From contig JAJCZS010000007.1 of assembly GCA_029262275.1 (NCBI GenBank), positions 382,031-446,030 on the forward strand: a stretch of 64,000 nt of DNA, given 5' to 3'. Position 1 is the first letter of the stretch; every line of letters starts with the position of its first letter. The notes under the pieces were generated by a model, which worked only from the letters and a program-made list of their open reading frames with translations, was not told the origin of the DNA and did no database searches. The position numbers were made by a program, and so were the translations under genes. Positions 1,904-39,446 of this stretch are shown here, one piece after another. The stretch comes from Deltaproteobacteria bacterium (GTDB lineage: Bacteria > Desulfobacterota_D > UBA1144 > Nemesobacterales > UBA2774).

Positions 1904-3235
1904 ATGAGTCAGCAAAACACACTAACTTACGCAAGAGTCAATGACGACGTTATAAGAATGCTGGATAAGCCCACATTTAAGTGGTGGGCACTATTTCTAC
2001 CTACTCTTTTGTTTGTCGGAATTGGCGCATTTTGCTTCATATATCAGGTTCAATATGGATTGGGTGTTGCAGGCTATAGGCATCCAGTATTTTGGGGTGT
2101 TTACATTACAGATTTTGTATTCTGGGTTGGTATTGCGCATTCAGGAACTTTGATTTCAGCAGTTTTATTTCTTTTCCGTGCGAATTTCCGAATGTCGATT
2201 TACCGAATAGCTGAGGGTATGACGGTATTTGCAGTTTTAACTGCAGGATTATTTCCTATTATTCACTTAGGTCGACCATGGAACTTTTACTGGTTATTTC
2301 CATACCCAAACCAAAGAGAGCTATGGGTTAACTTTAAATCACCGCTTCTTTGGGACGTTTTCGCTGTAAGCACTTACCTAACTGTAAGCTCTGTTTTCTT
2401 CTTTATTGGAATGATTCCAGACATCGCGGCTATTAGAGACAGGGTTACAGAAACACCACGTAAAATTATCTATTCCATACTCTCACTGGGCTGGAAAGGG
2501 TCCAACTGGGAATGGTTACACTACACAAGGGCATATTTGTTCTTTGCAGCTTTTGCTACTCCACTAGTTCTCTCGGTTCACAGTGTTGTATCCTGGGACT
2601 TTGCAATGTCAAACCTTCCTGGTTGGCATACGACTATTTTTGCTCCTTATTTTGTTGCAGGTGCTATTTTCTCAGGTCTAGGGATGGTTATCACGCTAAC
2701 TGTGCCGATTAGAAAGATATTCCACTTAGAAGACTATATCACCATGGACAATTATGATGGTATGGCAAAACTCATATTGGTAACTTCAGGAATTGTAGGC
2801 TATGCCTATGGTGTAGAATTCTTTATGGCATGGTACAGCGGTGTGCCTGCTGAATGGTATCAGTTCTATTACAGGGCAACCGGAGAGTATGCACTATTTT
2901 ACTGGATAATGATTGTATGTAACGTAATAATTCCGCTACCTCTTTGGTTTAAGAGTATGCGTAGTAACATAGTTGTTCTATTTATAATTTCTATCTTCAT
3001 TAATATCGGTATGTGGTTTGAGAGATTTAACATTATCGTGATTTCTCTATCGCGTGGGTTTGATCCTGCGGCTTGGGGAATCTATCAACCTACATGGGTT
3101 GAAATTGGTATTACGGTAGGAAGTTTCGCATGGTTCTTCATGTTCTTCCTAATTTTCTTAAAAACTCTTCCTTCTGTCTCTATTGCTGAGATGAAGGAGA
3201 TCTTGCCTGTACCTAAGAAGGAGGCAAAAACATAA
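1904..3235 (+). CDS. actC: ACIII membrane subunit ActC (NrfD/PsrC-like polytopic quinol-binding protein).
   Basis: 443-aa protein that is highly hydrophobic with multiple predicted TM helices. Its position directly after actB and its NrfD-family pattern support the call. Confidence 0.7.
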   Translation: MSQQNTLTYARVNDDVIRMLDKPTFKWWALFLPTLLFVGIGAFCFIYQVQYGLGVAGYRHPVFWGVYITDFVFWVGIAHSGTLISAVLFLFRANFRMSIYRIAEGMTVFAVLTAGLFPIIHLGRPWNFYWLFPYPNQRELWVNFKSPLLWDVFAVSTYLTVSSVFFFIGMIPDIAAIRDRVTETPRKIIYSILSLGWKGSNWEWLHYTRAYLFFAAFATPLVLSVHSVVSWDFAMSNLPGWHTTIFAPYFVAGAIFSGLGMVITLTVPIRKIFHLEDYITMDNYDGMAKLILVTSGIVGYAYGVEFFMAWYSGVPAEWYQFYYRATGEYALFYWIMIVCNVIIPLPLWFKSMRSNIVVLFIISIFINIGMWFERFNIIVISLSRGFDPAAWGIYQPTWVEIGITVGSFAWFFMFFLIFLKTLPSVSIAEMKEILPVPKKEAKT

Positions 3236-3747
3236 TGAGTGAAAAACAAGGTGTTTTAGGAATATTCTCATACGTTGATGTAACCATAGATACAGTTAAA
3301 AAGCTCAAAGAAGCAGGTTTTAATAATCTAAGAGTTTTCTCTCCGGTTCCTAACCATGAGATCGAAGAGGTTATGGATGTGCCAGAAAGCCCTGTTAGAT
3401 TCTTTACTCTATTTGGAGCTATGCTAGGGGCTGCCTGCGGAGTAGGTTTCACTGTGCTTATGTCTACAGATTGGCCTATATCAGTTAGTGCTAAGCCAAT
3501 TGTATCGTTGCCACCTTTTATGGTGATAATATTTGAGTTAACAATTTTGATGGGAGCTTTGTCCACACTACTTGGATTACTTATTAACTCCCGTATTAGA
3601 AATAACGCACCTAGAACCATGTACGACACAAGATTCTCCGTTGATAAGTTTGGCGTGATGATTACCTGCTCTAAAGATGGAGTAGAGGGTGCACAAGACA
3701 TACTGAATTCTCAGGGTGCTGAGGAAATAAAGGTTGACGGTATTTAG
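3235..3747 (+). CDS. actD: ACIII subunit ActD (small membrane-anchored subunit).
   Basis: 170-aa protein. Its ATG overlaps the actC stop (TAATG coupling). It has one central hydrophobic segment and sits in the canonical position between actC and the monoheme actE. Confidence 0.6.
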   Translation: MSEKQGVLGIFSYVDVTIDTVKKLKEAGFNNLRVFSPVPNHEIEEVMDVPESPVRFFTLFGAMLGAACGVGFTVLMSTDWPISVSAKPIVSLPPFMVIIFELTILMGALSTLLGLLINSRIRNNAPRTMYDTRFSVDKFGVMITCSKDGVEGAQDILNSQGAEEIKVDGI

Positions 3748-3777: not shown

Positions 3778-4347
3778 TTGTTCTTCACAAATAAGAAATA
3801 TTATCTACTATTAGTGCCCGTATTAGTCTTTATGGGTTCATTGAAGGCACTTGCTTTCCCATGGTCTTTTGATATGTGGGTTCAGCCTTCATTGCTTCCA
3901 TATGAAGAACCAGTAATATATCCCGATCTCTCTGTGTCCACTACGGGTCTCAGGATAAAACCTCTACCAAGAGAAGATTTTGAAAATATGACCCAAAACC
4001 CTATAGCTACAAGCCCAGAATCGCTTGAGCAAGGTGAGAAATACTACAATAGATACTGCTATGTTTGCCACGGAATGGAAGGTATGGGCGATGGTCCTGT
4101 TATAAAAAGGGGATTCTACCCACTAAATCTAACTACACCGGGCGTAATAGCGAGAACAGATGGTTATATATATGCTTATATAAGATATGGTGGAAAAGTT
4201 ATGATGCCTAGCTATCGTGAAAGCATTACTTCCGATCAGGCTTGGGATATCGTGAATTATGTGAGAAAACTGCAAGGCAATCCAGTTAAAGAGACTGCAA
4301 CTGAACCCCCTGCAACTGAGGACACTGAACAGGAGAGCGCTGAGTAA
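3778..4347 (+). CDS. actE: ACIII monoheme cytochrome c subunit ActE.
   Basis: 189-aa protein with an N-terminal signal/anchor and a single CxxCH motif (CYVCHGMEG). A TTG start is preceded by a TAGGAGG ribosome-binding site. Confidence 0.65.
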   Translation: MFFTNKKYYLLLVPVLVFMGSLKALAFPWSFDMWVQPSLLPYEEPVIYPDLSVSTTGLRIKPLPREDFENMTQNPIATSPESLEQGEKYYNRYCYVCHGMEGMGDGPVIKRGFYPLNLTTPGVIARTDGYIYAYIRYGGKVMMPSYRESITSDQAWDIVNYVRKLQGNPVKETATEPPATEDTEQESAE

Positions 4348-4348
4348 G

Positions 4349-5599
4349 ATGGATGAGCATATAAGAGAAGAAATTTTAGCTAAAAGATCGCTGATTCCTA
4401 GTTGGTCTATTTATTTGTTCCTGATTATTGCCATAGTTGGTTTTGGAACTTTCGTATACAACATTATGGGATCAGAAGAGTCTGCTAAAGGCGCATGGGA
4501 AATATTCTTGATTAACTTCCTATACTGGACAGTGATAGCTCAGGCCGGAATTATCTTTTCCTGCATTCTGCGTATAACAAATGCAAGGTGGGCAAGGCCG
4601 CTTCTTCGTGTAAGCGAGGGGCTTGGTGCATTCCTTCCTATATCTTTTGTACTTCTTATTGTTGTGTTTTTAGGTCGAGACTATGTTTTGCCTTATGCAA
4701 CGGAGCACTACCATCATCCAAGAGATATATGGCTCAATATGACCTTTGTAATTACAAGAAACATAGGATTGTTCTCTGTTCTACTGATACTTAATGCTTT
4801 TTATCTTTATTACTCGCTCAGGCAGGATCTAGGGGGAGCTGCTGACAAGCTTAGTGGTCTACCAGCGTGGATTGCCTCCGGATGGTCAGGGGAAGATGAG
4901 AGAACCACCATGTGGAAGAGACTTGGCCAGTTTGCGCCTGCTGTAATTATTTTCTTTGCTTTGACCTTTAGTTTCTTTGCATGGGATTTAATAATGTCTC
5001 TTGATCCTCTATGGTTCAGCACACTTTTTGGTCCTTACTATTTTATGGGCGGTTTCTTAGGTGCTCTTGGAAGTACAATTATTTTATCCATTATGCTTAG
5101 AAGAAGGCTTGGTTTGGAAGAATATCTAGTAGATACTCATTACCATGATATGGGTAAACTGCTTCAAGGTTTCTCACTGTTTTGGGTCTATATGTTCTTC
5201 TCACAACTTCTACCTATCTGGTATGCAAATATGCCTGAAACAACTGCTTTTGTTATCAAAAGAGTTCAAGAAGAACCATTTAAAGCTTTTGCATGGGCGA
5301 CTTTAACTTGCGTGTTTATCTTCCCATTCCTAGCGCTTATGCCTAGAACTAATAAGATAGTTAAACCTATAGTAGTTTTTATTGCCGGAGTTTCTTTAAC
5401 AGGTCTGTGGATTGATAAATTTGTACTTGTAACTCCTTCATTATCAAATACAGTAAATATAGGTATTACACAAATACTTATCACACTTGGTTTCTTGGGT
5501 GCGTTTATAATGATGTTCCTATTATTTATAAGAACATTCCCATCAATACCATTTGGAGATAGGTTCTTTGGCGGCAAAGCAAAAGGAGGGCACCACTAA
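4349..5599 (+). CDS. actF: ACIII membrane subunit ActF (second NrfD-like subunit).
   Basis: 416-aa polytopic membrane protein paralogous in architecture to ActC. Its start lies 1 nt after the actE stop. Confidence 0.65.
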   Translation: MDEHIREEILAKRSLIPSWSIYLFLIIAIVGFGTFVYNIMGSEESAKGAWEIFLINFLYWTVIAQAGIIFSCILRITNARWARPLLRVSEGLGAFLPISFVLLIVVFLGRDYVLPYATEHYHHPRDIWLNMTFVITRNIGLFSVLLILNAFYLYYSLRQDLGGAADKLSGLPAWIASGWSGEDERTTMWKRLGQFAPAVIIFFALTFSFFAWDLIMSLDPLWFSTLFGPYYFMGGFLGALGSTIILSIMLRRRLGLEEYLVDTHYHDMGKLLQGFSLFWVYMFFSQLLPIWYANMPETTAFVIKRVQEEPFKAFAWATLTCVFIFPFLALMPRTNKIVKPIVVFIAGVSLTGLWIDKFVLVTPSLSNTVNIGITQILITLGFLGAFIMMFLLFIRTFPSIPFGDRFFGGKAKGGHH

Positions 5600-5742
5600 T
5601 GGATGATAAGCATCTTGATATGATAGCTCGGGGAGTCACTGTCGGCTTATGTCTTGGCGTTGCAGGATTCCTTACACTGCTTGCAACCATTGCATTTCTG
5701 GGTCCTCAGATTGCACCTCTTATGAATAAGCTTCCTTGGTAG
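5599..5742 (+). CDS. Unannotated 47-aa single-TM micro-protein, translationally coupled to actF. It may be an additional small ACIII subunit.
   Basis: I translated it by hand as MDDKHLDMIARGVTVGLCLGVAGFLTLLATIAFLGPQIAPLMNKLPW. Its ATG (5599-5601) overlaps the actF stop codon (5597-5599), and it ends at TAG 5740-5742. It falls below the ORF-track length cutoff. Confidence 0.4.
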   Translation: MDDKHLDMIARGVTVGLCLGVAGFLTLLATIAFLGPQIAPLMNKLPW

Positions 5743-5820: not shown

Positions 5821-5849
5821 TTGACAGATAGTATCCTTATTGGGAGAAT
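5821..5849 (+). promoter_or_regulatory. Candidate sigma-70 promoter upstream of the crotonase gene.
   Basis: TTGACA at 5821-5826, then a 17-nt spacer, then GAGAAT. A TATATT is also present at 5864-5869. Confidence 0.3.
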
Positions 5850-5886
5850 TGTAAGGTCTTAATTATATTCCAAAAGGAGAGTGTAT

Positions 5887-6745: not shown

Positions 6746-7084
6746 ATGTCTAAAGAAGCTGAGATAAATTTTGTAGTAAAACTAGATGAAGATAACTCAC
6801 CTGCTGAGATTTATTGGGGAGCAACAGAGGCTGATTTTGAAGGCTTGCAGCCCTGTGAGTCACTCATGATTTCAATGTGGGATAAGGTTCAAAAAAATAC
6901 TATGAGCATAGATCTCTGGACAAAAGGGATGGAAGTGGGAGAGATGAGTGCTCATTATTACTTTACTTTAATGAAGATGGCGGACACATATCAAAGAGCT
7001 ACTAACAATAGCGAATTATCAGAAATGATAAGGAACTTTGCTAAGGAGTTTGCTATGAAAGTTGAAGAGCTTGCTAACGATTAG
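6746..7084 (+). CDS. Small cytoplasmic hypothetical protein. It may resemble the gliding-associated GldC family, with low confidence.
   Basis: 112-aa protein with a strong ribosome-binding site (AGGAG) and no TM segment. Its size and conserved blocks (VKLDED..P..I.W.A...........M...WD......M.IDLWTK.M) are reminiscent of GldC. Confidence 0.35.
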   Translation: MSKEAEINFVVKLDEDNSPAEIYWGATEADFEGLQPCESLMISMWDKVQKNTMSIDLWTKGMEVGEMSAHYYFTLMKMADTYQRATNNSELSEMIRNFAKEFAMKVEELAND

Positions 7085-7090
7085 CCCATA

Positions 7091-8023
7091 CTACTTAAAA
7101 GCCGGTAAAACTTCTTTTGCAAATAATTTAAGGGTGTCATGGTTCATTATATCTGAGAAGAAAATGGTGTATTTTGTAATTCCTCGCTTTTCATTCTCTA
7201 ATATCTTCTCTATGCATTGATCTGGTGTGCCCACAATACCAAATTTTGAGATGTCGCCAAAGAATCCATATCTTCTTTGTCCTTTCTCAAGTTTTTCAGC
7301 AAGTTCTTCTTCGTTTTTTGCTATTACACAAACAGTTTGCTGAGAGATTCCTATATCATTTACATCTCTTCCAATATCATTGCAATGTCGTTTTAGCACC
7401 TCTAGTTTATGATCGTAAGAGTTTGCATGGTTAGCTGGGCAGTTCCACTCATCTGCGAGCTCTGCAACTGTTCTTAAAAGATACTCTTCACCCGCTCCTC
7501 CTACCATTATTGGTGGATGAGGTTTTTGAATGGGCTTTGGATTACAATAGGCTTCATTGATACTGTAGTGTTTTCCCTTAAAACTAGGTTTTTCTTCAGT
7601 CCACATAGCTCTTATGATTTTGATGGATTCAGAGAGCTGCTCAATTCTTGTTTTAGTATCGGGGAACTCGTATCCATAAGCTTTATATTCAGCCTCAAAC
7701 CATCCTGCGCCTATTGCGAACTCAAGTCTTCCATTACTAATTACATCAAGAGTTGAAGCCATCTTTGCAAGTAGCGCCGGCGGTCTAAAGGAATTGCATA
7801 GAACCATAGTGCCTATTCTTATTTTGTCTGTAACTGCTGCCAGTGCTGACATTGAGGTCCAGGCCTCATAAATATCCATCTCTATTGCACCCATACCAAG
7901 TATATGGTCATAGAACCAGACAGAATGGTAATCGAGCAGATCGCAGAGCTCTGTAGTCTCACGTATTTGAGAAAAGTCTATCTTTTGCTGGCGCAGCATT
8001 ACACCAAATTTAATTCTACTCAT
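7091..8023 (-). CDS. Luciferase-like monooxygenase (LLM) family oxidoreductase, of the flavin/F420-dependent class.
   Basis: 310-aa protein with LLM N-terminal signature (FGVML...VWFYDH) and TIM-barrel length. Confidence 0.65.
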   Translation of the reverse strand: MSRIKFGVMLRQQKIDFSQIRETTELCDLLDYHSVWFYDHILGMGAIEMDIYEAWTSMSALAAVTDKIRIGTMVLCNSFRPPALLAKMASTLDVISNGRLEFAIGAGWFEAEYKAYGYEFPDTKTRIEQLSESIKIIRAMWTEEKPSFKGKHYSINEAYCNPKPIQKPHPPIMVGGAGEEYLLRTVAELADEWNCPANHANSYDHKLEVLKRHCNDIGRDVNDIGISQQTVCVIAKNEEELAEKLEKGQRRYGFFGDISKFGIVGTPDQCIEKILENEKRGITKYTIFFSDIMNHDTLKLFAKEVLPAFK

Positions 8024-8169
8024 GTTCTCCCCTTGGTTTAATTGAAGTTAGAGAATCACTTTAACAGAGGGTCTGTGTAGAATCAAATATTCATTGTAAA
8101 CTGTTTGACACTGTTTGGGTAATACTATAGATTTAGATGCCTAGAGAAACAAAAAAGGAGGCCAAAATT

Positions 8170-8859
8170 ATGTATAAAAGTTCAATTAGATTTACTTTGA
8201 TAATGACTATTATTCTTTTTATCCCTGCAATATCTTTTCTTGCGGGCTGTAAGAATGAAGCACCACAGACTGAGACTGCAACAGAGACTCAAAGCTCTCA
8301 GGATACACAAGCGAGCACTGATGCTGACGGCAATGATGAGACATCAGGGGATGATAAAGCAGTAGAAAATAAAGGAGGAAATCCAGTGGTAATAATTAAA
8401 ACTTCAAAAGGTGATATTAAGCTTGAACTCGATAGAGAAAATGCTCCTATCAGTGTAGATAATTTTCTTGCTTATACTCAGGATGGCTACTATGATGGGA
8501 CTATCTTTCACAGAGTGATTAACAATTTTATGGTTCAAGGCGGGGGTTTTACAACCGATATGCAGCAAAAACCTACTAATGCACCTATAAAGAATGAGGC
8601 TGATAATGGTCTTAAAAATGAAAGAGGTACTATAGCTATGGCGCGCACTGGGGTTGTAGACAGTGCAACTTCTCAGTTCTTTATTAACCATGCCGATAAT
8701 GCATTCTTAGATAACGGCAAGAGAGATTTTGGTTACGCCGTATTTGGTAGAGTAGTGGATGGTATCGAAGTTGTAGATGCTATAGCAGCAGTTAAAACCG
8801 GCCCTGGGGATGTTCCCAACGAGCAGGTAGTTATAGAGTCCGTAACGATAGTAGAATAA
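8170..8859 (+). CDS. ppiB: Cyclophilin-type peptidyl-prolyl cis-trans isomerase, lipoprotein form.
   Basis: Cyclophilin core motifs ([22 protein letters not shown]). The ATG at 8170 is preceded by AAGGAGG, and the N-terminus has signal peptide plus lipobox (LAGC). The ORF track begins 33 nt upstream at 8137. Confidence 0.8.
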
Positions 8860-36252: not shown

Positions 36253-37191
36253 ATGACTTGGATTCCAGAGGCAGCATCAAATCTCGCAGGCAAAGTAGAT
36301 GGAGTACTATTAGTAATTACTCTTATCTCTATATTCTTCTTTGTTCTGATATCTGCAGTTTTGATTTACTTTGCAGTGAAGTACAGAAGAAGAAGAGAAG
36401 ATGAAGAAACCCCCTATATAACCGGTAATGAGACTTTCGAAATTATATGGACTGTAATACCATCCATCTTACTAATACTTCTATTTGTTTACGGATATGT
36501 AGTATACAAAGACATGAGAACTCCTCCCAAAGATGCTGTTGATATTACTGTTACAGGTAAACAGTGGCTTTGGACATTTGATTATTACAATGGCAAAAAA
36601 ACATTAAACGAATTATATGTGAAGCAAAACGTGCCTGTCAGAATGATAATGAGGGCTGATGATGTTCTTCACAGTTTCTTTATTCCGCAATTCAGAGTTA
36701 AGCAAGATATTCTTCCAGGTAGGTATACACAACTCTGGTTTATTCCTACTAAGGTTGGAACTTTTGATATATTTTGCGCGGAGTATTGCGGCACAGGCCA
36801 TTCAGCCATGTTAGGAAAAGTAATAGTGCTTAGCCCTGAAGCTTATGATATATGGGAGAAGGGTATAGGTATGGACGACGGCGCAGCTGTGTCCTCGCTA
36901 CCTCCAGCTGAGCTTGGAGAAAAGATTTATAAACAAAAGGGCTGTAACGCATGTCACAGTCTTGACGGTAGTGTTGTTATTGGTCCGTCATTTAAAGGGC
37001 TTTTTGGTAGAACAGGTGTATTGGAAAATGGTAAAAGTTACACAGCTGACGAAAATTATTTAATAGCTTCGATTTATGAACCGCAGGAAGAAATAGTAGA
37101 AGGATTTCAACCTGTGATGCCTTCATTTAAAGGTATACTAAGCGAGAATGAAGTAGATGCTGTTATAGCATTTATAAAGACTTTAAAATAA
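36253..37191 (+). CDS. coxB: Cytochrome c oxidase subunit II with a fused C-terminal cytochrome c domain (caa3-type).
   Basis: CuA site (H...CAEYCGTGHSAM) and a C-terminal CNACH heme c motif. Confidence 0.9.
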   Translation: MTWIPEAASNLAGKVDGVLLVITLISIFFFVLISAVLIYFAVKYRRRREDEETPYITGNETFEIIWTVIPSILLILLFVYGYVVYKDMRTPPKDAVDITVTGKQWLWTFDYYNGKKTLNELYVKQNVPVRMIMRADDVLHSFFIPQFRVKQDILPGRYTQLWFIPTKVGTFDIFCAEYCGTGHSAMLGKVIVLSPEAYDIWEKGIGMDDGAAVSSLPPAELGEKIYKQKGCNACHSLDGSVVIGPSFKGLFGRTGVLENGKSYTADENYLIASIYEPQEEIVEGFQPVMPSFKGILSENEVDAVIAFIKTLK

Positions 37192-37219
37192 GGGTTTAAT
37201 AATTTAGGAGGAAATTTAA

Positions 37220-38833
37220 ATGGCAAATCATACAGTTGCCACAAATGTATATGTTCCGTTTTTAGAGCAAAAGGGCTTTTTGTCCTGGTTTCTAACAACT
37301 GATCATAAACGAATCGGAATTCTATACTTGATTTCTATCTCTTTATTCTTTTTAATAGCCGGCGTTTTAGCGCTGCTTATGAGATTTGAGCTCATGACTC
37401 CAATGTCCGATTTTGTAAGTCCACATACCTACAATGTGCTATTCACATTGCACGGCTCTTTGATGGTCTTTTTCTTCATCGTTCCTGGGCTTGCTGCAAG
37501 TTTTGGTAATTTCCTTATACCCCTTATGATTGGTGCTCCAGATGTTGCCTTCCCAAAGCTTAATTTAGCTAGTTATTGGATATATATAGTGGGAGCTATC
37601 ATTACTCTAATTGCGCTACTATCACCAGCTGATACTGGCTGGACATTCTATACCCCTTACAGTGCGACTACGGATACAGATGTTGTAATGATTACCTTTG
37701 GAGTTTTTGTTCTGGGTTTCTCCTCGATTCTTACTGGAATGAACTTTATTGTTACAATTCATAAAATGAGAGCCCCCGGAATGACGTGGCATCGTTTGCC
37801 GCTATTTATATGGGCTTCCTATGCAACAGCAGTTCTTCAGCTTCTTGCAACTCCAGTTGTTGGTATAACACTTCTTATGCTTATTGCTGAGAGAAGTCTT
37901 GGAGTAGGTTTCTTTGATCCTGCTAAAGGTGGAGATCCTGTACTTTTTCAGAACTTCTTCTGGTTTTACTCACACCCTGCTGTGTACATCATGATCATTC
38001 CAGCTATGGGAGTTATATCAGAAATAATTCCGGTATTTGCTCGTAAACCTATATTTGGCTATAAGGCTATTGCCTATTCAAGTCTTGGTATTGCTTTTAT
38101 AAGCTTTTTGGTTTGGGCTCACCATATGTTTACTAGTGGTATCTCTGAGGTTGCAGCCACGATCTTCTCATTCTTAACTTTCTTAGTTGCTATTCCAACA
38201 GCGATCAAGGTTTTTAACTGGACCGCTACACTATATAAAGGTTCAATTGAGCTCCATTCAGCTATGTTATACGCGCTTGGATTCATCTTCCTATTTACAA
38301 TAGGGGGACTAACAGGAGTTTTCTTAGGAGCGCTTGCTGTAGATATTCATCTTCACGACACCTATTTTGTTGTGGCTCATATGCACTATGTAATGATTGG
38401 TGGAACAGTTATGGGGTTCTTTGGAGCACTTCATTTCTGGTACCCAAAATGGTTTGGCAAGATGTTTAACGAATCAGTTGCCAAACTTGCATGGTTCCTA
38501 GTTTTCGTTGGTTTCAATATTACGTTCTTCCCTCAATTTTTCTTAGGAATCCAGGGTATGCCTAGAAGATATGCTACGTATCCAGAGGAGTTTGAATCCC
38601 TTATGGCTCTATCTACATACGGGTCATGGATATTGGGTCTAGGTGTTCTAATAATGACAGTGAATCTTATAAAAGGACTTTTCAGTGATGAAAAAGCGCC
38701 TCAGAATCCATACGGATCTCTTTCTCTTGAATGGCAGGTGCCTTCACCACCGCCAACCCTAAATTTTGATAAAATTCCTATAGTAACAGATTGGACTTAT
38801 GGTTACGGTAAAAAGAAAGAGGTGGATGCTTAA
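37220..38833 (+). CDS. coxA: Cytochrome c oxidase subunit I.
   Basis: 537-aa protein with 12 TM helices and conserved His ligands ([19 protein letters not shown]). Confidence 0.9.
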
Positions 38834-38834
38834 A

Positions 38835-39446
38835 ATGGAACAAGCTAATATGGATCACGCTGAAGGCCACGACCTTCATTTGACACCAGAGCAAGAATAC
38901 GGCATTTCTAAGCTTGGCATGTGGCTATTTCTGGGAACAGAAATTATGCTTTTCGGAGGTCTCTTTGCTGCTTATGCAATATTTAGAGCTAAGTACCCTG
39001 AAATGTTTTTAGAGTCCCATCAAGAACTTAACCGTGAAATGGGAGCCGTAAACACCTGCATATTAATCTTCAGCAGTTTAACAATGGCCATTGGGGTTAC
39101 CGCGATACAAAGAGGTAAACAGATGCTTGCCGGTATTATGATTCTGGTTACCATAATATGCGGTCTGGGATTTGGAGTTGTTAAATATTTTGAGTACGGT
39201 GCAAAATTTGCACACCACATTTATCCTGACACAAATATATTCTTCTCACTTTACTTCATGATGACCGGTCTTCATATGTTACATGTCTTTATAGGTCTTG
39301 CTGTCCTTGGAGTAATAATGGTATTAACCTTTAAGGGTAAATTTAATGAAAAATATAGCACTCCCGTAGAGATGGGTGGGTTGTACTGGCATTTAGTGGA
39401 TTTAGTATGGATTTATCTTTTCCCATTACTTTATTTAGTAGGATAG
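38835..39446 (+). CDS. coxC: Cytochrome c oxidase subunit III.
   Basis: Polytopic membrane protein located after coxA. The ATG at 38835 lies 1 nt after the coxA stop; the ORF-track start at 38799 would overlap coxA. Confidence 0.8.
   Translation: MEQANMDHAEGHDLHLTPEQEYGISKLGMWLFLGTEIMLFGGLFAAYAIFRAKYPEMFLESHQELNREMGAVNTCILIFSSLTMAIGVTAIQRGKQMLAGIMILVTIICGLGFGVVKYFEYGAKFAHHIYPDTNIFFSLYFMMTGLHMLHVFIGLAVLGVIMVLTFKGKFNEKYSTPVEMGGLYWHLVDLVWIYLFPLLYLVG

What the first reader, a model, noticed from the sequence alone, without database searches (positions are those of the whole stretch)
5599..5742. Unannotated 47-aa single-TM ORF translationally coupled (TAATG) to actF: a possible extra small subunit of alternative complex III
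The ORF is below the ORF-track cutoff, but its ATG overlaps the actF stop codon. It encodes a clean single TM helix (GVTVGLCLGVAGFLTLLATIAFLG). Known ACIII operons sometimes end with a small accessory subunit (ActG), but this ORF is much shorter than those. Respiratory complexes often carry such micro-subunits, which are easy to miss.
Basis: seen in the sequence. Interest (0 to 1): 0.55.

Follow-up and report, generated by a model that had tools for sequence, protein, structure and literature searches.

The report
Conserved micro-protein gene after actF
A 47-residue single-helix membrane protein gene that overlaps the end of actF is a real, strongly conserved gene found only in the alternative complex III operons of Dadabacteria-type bacteria, where it sits in the place the unrelated ActG subunit holds elsewhere, so it is probably an undescribed small ACIII partner, though nobody has shown that it binds the complex.

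Summary
ORF 5599-5742 (+) encodes 47 aa, its ATG overlaps the actF stop (TAATG), and a GGAGG lies 9 nt upstream. An ORF this short means nothing alone, but comparison shows a real gene. All 19 related ACIII loci with ActF at least 54% identical carry it directly after actF. Every homologue located independently also sits there. dN/dS is 0.04-0.18 while synonymous sites are saturated. GGAGG is present in 24/24 junctions and the 1-nt stop/start overlap in 21/24.

The family is narrow: about 175 clusters at 90% identity, or 12 at 50%, all 46-68 aa. All named sources are Dadabacteria or Thermodesulfobacteriota MAGs. It matches no Pfam, NCBIfam or PDB entry. It is not ActG, because it lacks the ActG C-terminal domain (hhalign probability 8%), and it is not ActH.

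None of 72 more distant ACIII-type loci has it; many carry ActG or cox genes at that position. The most conserved part is the end of the helix plus the tail (A-x-x-G-P-x-x-A-P-L-M-N-K-L-P-W), with only a narrow variable stripe on the helix.

Best reading: a lineage-specific micro-subunit or assembly partner made with ActF. Physical association is inferred, not shown. Interest is moderate. GenBank already lists close relatives as "hypothetical protein".

The parts
4349..5599 (+). actF, the second NrfD/PsrC-like membrane subunit of alternative complex III and the gene to which the micro-ORF is coupled. Its last codons (Gly-Gly-His-His-stop) contain the Shine-Dalgarno sequence of the micro-ORF.
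   Evidence: It matches PDB ActF chains 6btm_F (7.7e-33), 6f0k_F (1.2e-28) and 8k9e_F (5.6e-27) end to end. The operon order ActB-C-D-E-F comes from Pfam.
5585..5589 (+). Shine-Dalgarno GGAGG, 9 nt before the ATG, lying inside the Gly-Gly codons of actF.
   Evidence: Read directly from the sequence. GGAGG sits 6-10 nt upstream of the start in 24 of 24 complete junctions in relatives.
5597..5601 (+). TAATG stop/start overlap: actF stop TAA 5597-5599 and micro-ORF ATG 5599-5601.
   Evidence: The same 1-nt overlap (TAATG or TGATG) occurs in 21 of 24 loci, and the other three have gaps of 0, 2 and 3 nt. The frame relation to actF therefore varies, which excludes a frameshifted ActF extension.
5599..5742 (+). 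The micro-protein gene: 47 codons plus TAG.
   Evidence: There are 175 homologues of 46-61 aa. dN/dS is 0.04-0.18. hmmsearch recovers it as the only family member in the window at 6.5e-27.
5599..5631 (+). N-terminal acidic flank (residues 1-11, MDDKHLDMIAR) with conserved L6, D7 and I9.
   Evidence: L6 87%, D7 87%, I9 79%. Mean net charge of this flank is -1.33 across 134 members.
5632..5703 (+). Transmembrane helix (residues 12-35). Small residues G20, G23, A29 and A32 are conserved and G35 is invariant. Variable positions 12, 16, 26 and 30 fall on one face.
   Evidence: Column statistics. AlphaFold2 gives a single helix over residues 3-42 with mean pLDDT 88.
5704..5739 (+). C-terminal tail (residues 36-47, PQIAPLMNKLPW), the most conserved part of the protein.
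   Evidence: P36 96%, A39 86%, P40 94%, L41 94%, M42 91%, N43 86%, K44 82%, L45 97%, P46 98%, W47 90%. Mean net charge is +1.13.
5821..5849 (+). Promoter-like site (TTGACA, 17 nt spacer, TG-GAGAAT) in front of the next gene, an enoyl-CoA hydratase starting at 5881. It suggests the ACIII transcription unit ends with the micro-ORF.
   Evidence: 10 of 12 matches, extended -10 TG; no terminator-like site was found. TTTGACA-like motifs recur at the same place in L001 and L003. This is a consensus match only.

Best explanation
The ORF is a genuine protein-coding gene. It is the last cistron of the actABCDEF operon in Dadabacteria-type Thermodesulfobacteriota. It is translated by ribosomes that terminate at, or initiate next to, the actF stop codon, using a GGAGG embedded in the last actF codons, so it is made together with ActF.

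The product is a single-pass membrane micro-protein. The charge distribution predicts the N-terminus outside and the C-terminus in the cytoplasm. I infer that its conserved helix face and its near-invariant G-P...A-P-L-M-N-K-L-P-W tail pack against the ACIII membrane module, most likely ActF. It would then act as a lineage-specific seventh small subunit or stabilising and assembly partner, in the operon position that the unrelated ActG holds in other lineages.

Shown: gene reality, strict linkage to actF, the coupling signals, the restricted distribution, and non-homology to ActG and ActH.

Inferred: physical binding to ACIII, topology, and a structural rather than catalytic role.
For: - Presence in relatives. 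All 11 genome loci with ActF 54-89% identical have the ORF directly after actF, while the DNA beyond it is not conserved. All 8 metagenome loci with ActF at least 57% identical have it too.
- Reverse test. Homologues located by their own sequence all lie directly after actF: L012, L013, L014, L015 and L016, including a distant member with E 1.5e-6. L012 shows the whole actA-F operon.
- Selection. Pairwise dN/dS is 0.04-0.18 with dS of 0.5 to above saturation.
- Coupling. GGAGG is present in 24/24 junctions and the 1-nt overlap in 21/24.
- Conservation pattern. Variable residues form one narrow stripe (12, 16, 26, 30, 37). The rest of the helix and the tail are conserved, with G35 at 100% and A32, P36, L45 and P46 at 96% or more. 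This is as expected for a helix buried against a partner protein.
- Architecture. It is a single helix.
- Precedent. ACIII in other lineages has a single-helix protein, ActG, encoded at exactly this place. ActG is resolved in solved ACIII structures as chain 8k9e_G.
- No ActG homologue is found in this 64-kb window.
Against: - There is no direct evidence of translation or of co-purification with ACIII.
- No solved ACIII structure (6btm, 6f0k, 6lod, 8k9e) contains a homologous chain. Those organisms' ActF proteins lie outside this ActF clade, and the two act loci I could inspect (a Rhodothermus relative, L017, and a Flavobacterium, L018) lack the gene. So there is no structural precedent for where it would bind.
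- Operon linkage is equally compatible with a transient assembly factor.
- The topology prediction rests only on flank charges.
- A caa3 oxidase is encoded 30 kb away, so a role at an ACIII-oxidase interface cannot be excluded.
Confidence: 0.6

Rival explanations
1. It is a transient assembly or insertion factor for ActF or ACIII, comparable to small chaperone-like membrane peptides, and not a stoichiometric subunit of the mature complex.
For: The linkage and coupling evidence is the same as for the best explanation. Nothing in the data separates stable from transient association. Related ACIII complexes function without any homologue.
Against: Translational coupling through an overlapping stop/start is more typical of components made in fixed ratio. 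Nearly the whole 47 residues are conserved, including the full tail, which suggests an extensive permanent interface. This argument is weak.
Confidence: 0.2
2. It is a drastically shortened descendant of ActG that kept the N-terminal flank and membrane anchor and lost the C-terminal domain. This is a statement about origin and is compatible with the best explanation.
For: It has the same operon position, the same short acidic N-terminus followed by one helix, and ActG is absent from the window.
Against: Profile-profile comparison with a 13-sequence ActG alignment gives probability 8% over 10 transmembrane columns only, and 0.2% against a single ActG. The family's own conserved tail has no counterpart in ActG. 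The exhaustive profile search found no intermediate longer than 68 aa.
Confidence: 0.12
3. It belongs functionally to the caa3 cytochrome oxidase or to an ACIII-oxidase supercomplex interface rather than to ACIII itself.
For: The window encodes COX2, COX1 and COX3 at 36253-39446. ACIII-oxidase supercomplexes are documented in Flavobacterium johnsoniae and Rhodothermus marinus (PMC5928083).
Against: The gene is never next to cox genes. It is always fused to the end of actF, 30 kb away from the oxidase here.
Confidence: 0.05
4. It is a chance ORF or a non-coding feature, for example an overlap that serves only termination or mRNA stability.
For: Short ORFs are abundant in this A+T-rich window. 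No family annotation exists.
Against: dN/dS is 0.04-0.18 with saturated synonymous sites. The length is kept at 46-51 aa in nearly all members across ActF divergence down to 44%. The amino-acid motif is invariant while the codons differ.
Confidence: 0.02

Closest known systems
ActG, the seventh subunit of alternative complex III in Chloroflexus, Rhodothermus and many other lineages (PDB chain 8k9e_G; L017:7330-7731 in a Rhodothermus relative)
   Same: It is encoded immediately downstream of actF as the last act gene. It has a short acidic N-terminus followed by one transmembrane helix. [quoted passage not shown]
   Different: ActG is 93-174 aa and is defined by a C-terminal domain with the motif Y-x-x-(I/L)-D-x-x-x-G-x-x-(R/H)-I-P-I-(D/E)-R-A-M-E-L. 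The micro-protein is 46-51 aa, has no such domain, and carries its own G-P-x-x-A-P-L-M-N-K-L-P-W tail. No sequence homology is detectable. ActG genes are usually separated from actF by 4-108 nt rather than overlapping it.
ActH (Rmar_1979) of Rhodothermus marinus ACIII
   Same: It is a lineage-restricted accessory ACIII subunit with no homologues outside close relatives, thought to enhance complex stability (PMC5928083).
   Different: ActH is a peripheral periplasmic three-helix-bundle protein encoded outside the act cluster. The micro-protein is a single membrane helix encoded inside the operon. Neither the single sequence nor the family profile hit any chain of 6f0k.
Single-helix micro-subunits of other quinol-oxidising respiratory or photosynthetic complexes, such as CydX of cytochrome bd and PetG/L/M/N of cytochrome b6f (from general knowledge)
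   Same: They are about 30-50 aa, have one transmembrane helix, are encoded in or next to the operon of the complex, play a structural or stabilising role, and are easily missed by annotation.
   Different: There is no sequence relationship: Pfam and NCBIfam scans gave only sub-threshold transmembrane noise. The partner complex is different. Association is experimentally proven for those proteins and not for this one.

Membership tests
ActG (ACIII subunit G) | Gene located directly downstream of actF in the act cluster | tested here: met
   The ORF starts at the actF stop codon. The same holds in 24 related loci.
ActG (ACIII subunit G) | One predicted transmembrane helix after a short N-terminal segment | tested here: met
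   Hydrophobic run at residues 12-35. AlphaFold2 gives a single helix over residues 3-42, pLDDT 88.
ActG (ACIII subunit G) | C-terminal domain of about 60-70 aa with the conserved Y..D...G..(R/H)IPI(D/E)RAMEL motif | tested here: not met
   The protein ends 12 residues after the helix. The ActG alignment built from 13 loci shows the motif, and the micro-protein has nothing alignable to it.
ActG (ACIII subunit G) | Detectable sequence or profile homology to known ActG (Rhodothermus relative; PDB 8k9e_G) | tested here: not met
   hhalign probability is 0.2% against single ActG and 8% against the ActG alignment, over 10 transmembrane columns only. The profile search of PDB did not retrieve 8k9e_G at E up to 10.
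ActG (ACIII subunit G) | Co-purifies with ACIII or is visible in its structure | not testable with these tools
   No biochemical or structural data exist for a Dadabacteria-type ACIII.
ActH (ACIII subunit H, Rmar_1979) | Soluble periplasmic three-helix bundle protein homologous to Rmar_1979 | tested here: not met
   The description of ActH comes from PMC5928083. PDB searches with the sequence and with the profile found no 6f0k chain. The protein is a single hydrophobic helix.
The micro-protein family defined here (no name or Pfam entry) | 46-68 aa; conserved L-D-x-I near the N-terminus; one helix ending in A-x-x-G-P; tail A-P-L-M-N-K-L-P-W or the variant I-P-F-F-R-A-L-P-Y | tested here: met
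   The window sequence scores 6.5e-27 against the family HMM and is 68-96% identical to the first 24 members.
The micro-protein family defined here (no name or Pfam entry) | Encoded immediately after actF of the Dadabacteria-type ACIII clade, with GGAGG and an overlapping or abutting start | tested here: met
   It is absent from 72 loci whose ActF-like protein is at most 41% identical.
Known small subunits or assembly peptides of terminal oxidases (CydX, CcoQ, CcoS and similar) | Match to the corresponding Pfam or NCBIfam models | tested here: not met
   No family matched at E up to 0.01 in Pfam or E up to 1 in NCBIfam. Scanning 34 members gave only sub-threshold OppC_N transmembrane matches.

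The most novel reading that the evidence does not exclude
Dadabacteria-type alternative complex III has a previously unrecognised seventh subunit. This 47-residue helix is unrelated to ActG and is co-translated with ActF. Its cytoplasmic G-P...A-P-L-M-N-K-L-P-W tail clamps the ActF/ActC cytoplasmic ends. If so, ACIII repeatedly recruited different single-helix partners at the same operon position, and perhaps the same structural position, in different lineages.
Probability: 0.45. Interest if true: 0.45.

Novelty: new variant of a known kind. Interest (0 to 1): 0.38.

Why it matters
The subunit composition of ACIII is still being revised. ActH was only found through cryo-EM, and ActG was not resolved in the Rhodothermus marinus structure. 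A conserved, translationally coupled micro-protein in one ACIII clade would add a lineage-specific subunit.

It would also show that the position after actF is a recurring slot for single-helix accessory proteins. That bears on how the ActC/ActF membrane module is stabilised or assembled.

In practice it gives annotators a family of about 175 "hypothetical protein" clusters that can be labelled as ACIII-associated. It flags a peptide that shotgun proteomics will almost never see, because the only usable tryptic peptide is HLDMIAR.

It does not change the understanding of ACIII catalysis.

Tried and rejected
- PDB sequence searches with the peptide and with the family profile returned only designed coiled coils, a Rieske transmembrane segment, the CD28 transmembrane segment and YetJ. 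These are compositional matches and were rejected.
- Pfam and NCBIfam gave nothing. Scanning 34 members produced only sub-threshold OppC_N hits, which are generic transmembrane similarity.
- An exhaustive HMMER profile search of 1.84 billion representatives looked for longer relatives or ActF fusions. It found only 12 clusters, all 46-68 aa. Gene-fission and domain-remnant ideas therefore got no support. ActF itself aligns end to end with 8k9e_F, so the ORF is not a split-off piece of ActF.
- ActG homology was tested twice and rejected. ActH was rejected on its description and the PDB searches.
- I looked for the gene in ACIII operons of a Rhodothermus relative and a Flavobacterium. It is absent from both: ActG follows actF in the first and COX2 in the second.
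- No intrinsic terminator was found after the ORF, and the folding z-score of the intergenic RNA is unremarkable.
- The Flavobacterium johnsoniae structure paper (Sun et al. 2018) could not be read, because it is not in the library. I therefore could not check whether that map contains unassigned helices.
- Literature searches found no paper linking Dadabacteria to ACIII and no description of this peptide.

Full report
**1. The observation**

The window carries the distal part of an alternative complex III (ACIII) operon:
- ActB at 83-1897, which runs off the window start.
- ActC at 1904-3235 (NrfD).
- ActD at 3235-3747 (PF11821).
- ActE at 3778-4347 (monohaem cytochrome c).
- ActF at 4349-5599, which matches the PDB ActF chains 6btm_F, 6f0k_F and 8k9e_F.

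It has 47 codons, and its ATG shares one base with the actF TAA (TAATG). Its product is MDDKHLDMIARGVTVGLCLGVAGFLTLLATIAFLGPQIAPLMNKLPW. A GGAGG at 5585-5589 lies 9 nt upstream, inside the Gly-Gly codons at the end of actF.

A 47-codon ORF is not remarkable by itself here, since 82 ORFs of at least 30 aa occur in the first 10 kb. The question had to be settled by comparison with relatives.

**2. It is a real gene**

A protein search found 24 homologues, all exactly 47 aa and 68-96% identical. A profile search raised this to 175 clusters of 46-61 aa.

Anchoring on ActF instead gave the same answer. Eleven genomes with ActF 54-89% identical all carry a small ORF directly after actF. The DNA beyond the ORF is unrelated between the more distant loci.

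Pairwise Nei-Gojobori estimates among six 47-codon orthologues give dN/dS of 0.04-0.18. Synonymous divergence runs from 0.5 to beyond saturation. The reading frame relative to actF also differs between loci: a 1-nt overlap in most, and gaps of 0, 2 or 3 nt in three. It is therefore an independent cistron and not a frameshifted ActF tail.

**3. Linkage and coupling**

I located homologues by their own sequence, without reference to actF. Every one lies directly after actF:
- L012 and L013, which show a complete actA-B-C-D-E-F operon followed by the ORF.
- L014.
- L015, a distant member with E 1.5e-6.
- L016.

Across 24 complete junctions, GGAGG is present 6-10 nt before the ATG in all 24. The TAATG or TGATG overlap is present in 21.

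No terminator-like site follows the ORF. A promoter-like site at 5821-5849 precedes the next gene, an enoyl-CoA hydratase. The ORF is thus the last cistron of the act unit and is set up for coupled translation with ActF.

**4. Distribution**

An exhaustive HMMER profile search of 1.84 billion representatives (50% identity clusters) found only 12 clusters at E up to 1e-3. All are 46-68 aa, with no longer relatives and no fusions.

Named sources are Thermodesulfobacteriota, Candidatus Dadabacteria and Candidatus Mycalebacterium MAGs. Dadabacteria is a class of Thermodesulfobacteriota in the NCBI taxonomy.

A survey of 80 metagenome loci, chosen with a broad ActF alignment, gave a sharp split. 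All 8 loci with ActF at least 57% identical have the ORF. None of the 72 with at most 41% identity has it, using hmmsearch with filters off on all six-frame ORFs. ActF proteins that carry the ORF are at least 44% identical to one another. They are about 27% identical to Rhodothermus and Flavobacterium ActF.

**5. What occupies this position elsewhere**

In a Rhodothermus relative, actF is followed by a 133-aa single-helix protein and then the caa3 oxidase genes. This protein weakly matches PDB chain 8k9e_G, which is named ActG.

At least 12 of the surveyed loci have ActG-like genes of 93-174 aa after actF. Nine were detected by BLAST against the Rhodothermus protein and three were added on architecture. 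All share a C-terminal domain with the motif Y..D...G..(R/H)IPI(D/E)RAMEL.

Flavobacterium-type operons go straight from actF to COX2, with no small ORF between them.

The micro-protein is not ActG. It lacks the C-terminal domain. hhalign gives 0.2% probability against one ActG and 8% against the ActG alignment, over 10 transmembrane columns. The family profile does not retrieve 8k9e_G.

It is not ActH either. ActH is a periplasmic three-helix bundle encoded elsewhere in the genome (PMC5928083).

The window contains no ActG homologue. It does encode a caa3 oxidase at 36253-39446.

**6. Anatomy**

AlphaFold2 with the family alignment predicts one helix over residues 3-42, with mean pLDDT 88.

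Conservation across 134 sequences increases towards the C-terminus:

| Residue | Conservation |
|---|---|
| G35 | 100% |
| P46 | 98% |
| L45 | 97% |
| A32, P36 | 96% |
| P40, L41 | 94% |
| M42 | 91% |
| W47 | 90% |

Small residues G20, G23, A29 and A32 are conserved. The variable positions (12, 16, 26, 30, 37) fall on one helical face. This is the pattern expected when only a narrow stripe faces lipid and the rest contacts a partner protein.

The N-terminal flank has a mean net charge of -1.33 and the C-terminal flank +1.13. By the positive-inside rule this predicts the N-terminus outside and the C-terminus in the cytoplasm. That would put the conserved tail on the side where the ActC and ActF termini lie (PMC5928083). 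This step is inference.

**7. Interpretation**

Taken together, the evidence points to function with ACIII. It comprises strict operon linkage, coupled translation with ActF, purifying selection over nearly every residue, a one-sided variable stripe, and the ActG precedent at the same position.

My estimates are as follows:
- Gene reality: about 0.97.
- Association with ACIII function of any kind: about 0.8-0.85.
- A stable, stoichiometric subunit: about 0.55-0.6.

The main rival is a transient assembly factor, which the data cannot separate from a stable subunit. An origin as a truncated ActG cannot be excluded but has no sequence support. A role with the caa3 oxidase is unlikely given the gene's position. 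A chance ORF is refuted.

**8. Novelty and score**

No Pfam, NCBIfam or PDB entry and no paper in the searchable library describes this family. GenBank lists members only as "hypothetical protein".

Conceptually it is a familiar kind of thing: a single-helix micro-subunit of a respiratory complex, positionally analogous to ActG. I therefore rate it a new variant of a known kind. It has moderate interest for ACIII specialists and for small-protein annotation, and it is not a surprise at the level of mechanism.

Noticed in passing
window 6746-7084 (+); also L012:9215-9559, L007:5466-5792, L023:3980-4306, L025:3912-4241: A 112-aa GldC-like protein gene (PF19937) lies on the same strand downstream of the micro-ORF in 15 related loci. 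In several it follows the micro-ORF directly. In the window's own subclade an enoyl-CoA hydratase gene sits between them. It may be a further conserved neighbour of this ACIII clade; its function is unknown.
   Followed up: partly
window 36253-39446 (+): A caa3-type cytochrome oxidase cluster (COX2, COX1 and COX3; COX1 is 61% identical to that of a Rhodothermus relative) lies 30 kb from the ACIII operon. In Rhodothermus and Flavobacterium the oxidase genes directly follow the act genes. No ActG homologue was found anywhere in the window.
   Followed up: partly
window 5585-5596; the same place in 24 related loci: The ActF C-terminus Gly-Gly-His(-His) is encoded by GGAGG plus CAY codons, so the same bases serve as ActF codons and as the Shine-Dalgarno sequence of the micro-ORF. 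A G-H-H C-terminus also occurs in the ActF of PDB 8k9e, which belongs to an ActG-type complex. The residues may therefore be constrained at the protein level as well.
   Followed up: partly
L027:3801-4340, L035:3641-4165, L041:2013-2561, L045:3655-4284: In the nearest outgroup loci (ActF-like protein 34-40% identical), the gene after the ActF-like gene is a 175-210-aa membrane-anchored multihaem cytochrome c (cytochrome c7/c3 families), resembling ActA. This indicates a different gene order or a related but distinct NrfD-type complex.
   Followed up: partly
L006 (labelled Spirochaetia MAG), L009 (labelled Ignavibacteriales MAG), L008 (Dadabacteria MAG): These three MAGs carry different phylum labels. 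Yet their ActF proteins are 89-90% identical and they share the same micro-protein variant with the tail I-P-F-F-R-A-L-P-Y-P-L. Mis-binning or misclassification of L006 and L009 is likely.
   Followed up: no
window 7091-8023 (-) and 8137-8859 (+); L015:2974-3918 and 5132-5734: A luciferase-like monooxygenase gene and a cyclophilin-type prolyl isomerase gene lie just downstream of the ACIII operon. This holds both in the window and in the distant locus L015 (ActF 53% identical), so local synteny extends beyond the act genes.
   Followed up: no
window 5526-5690 (-): A 54-aa antisense ORF overlaps the actF end and the micro-ORF start. Synonymous sites of the plus-strand frame are saturated in relatives, which gives no hint that this antisense ORF is coding.
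   Followed up: no
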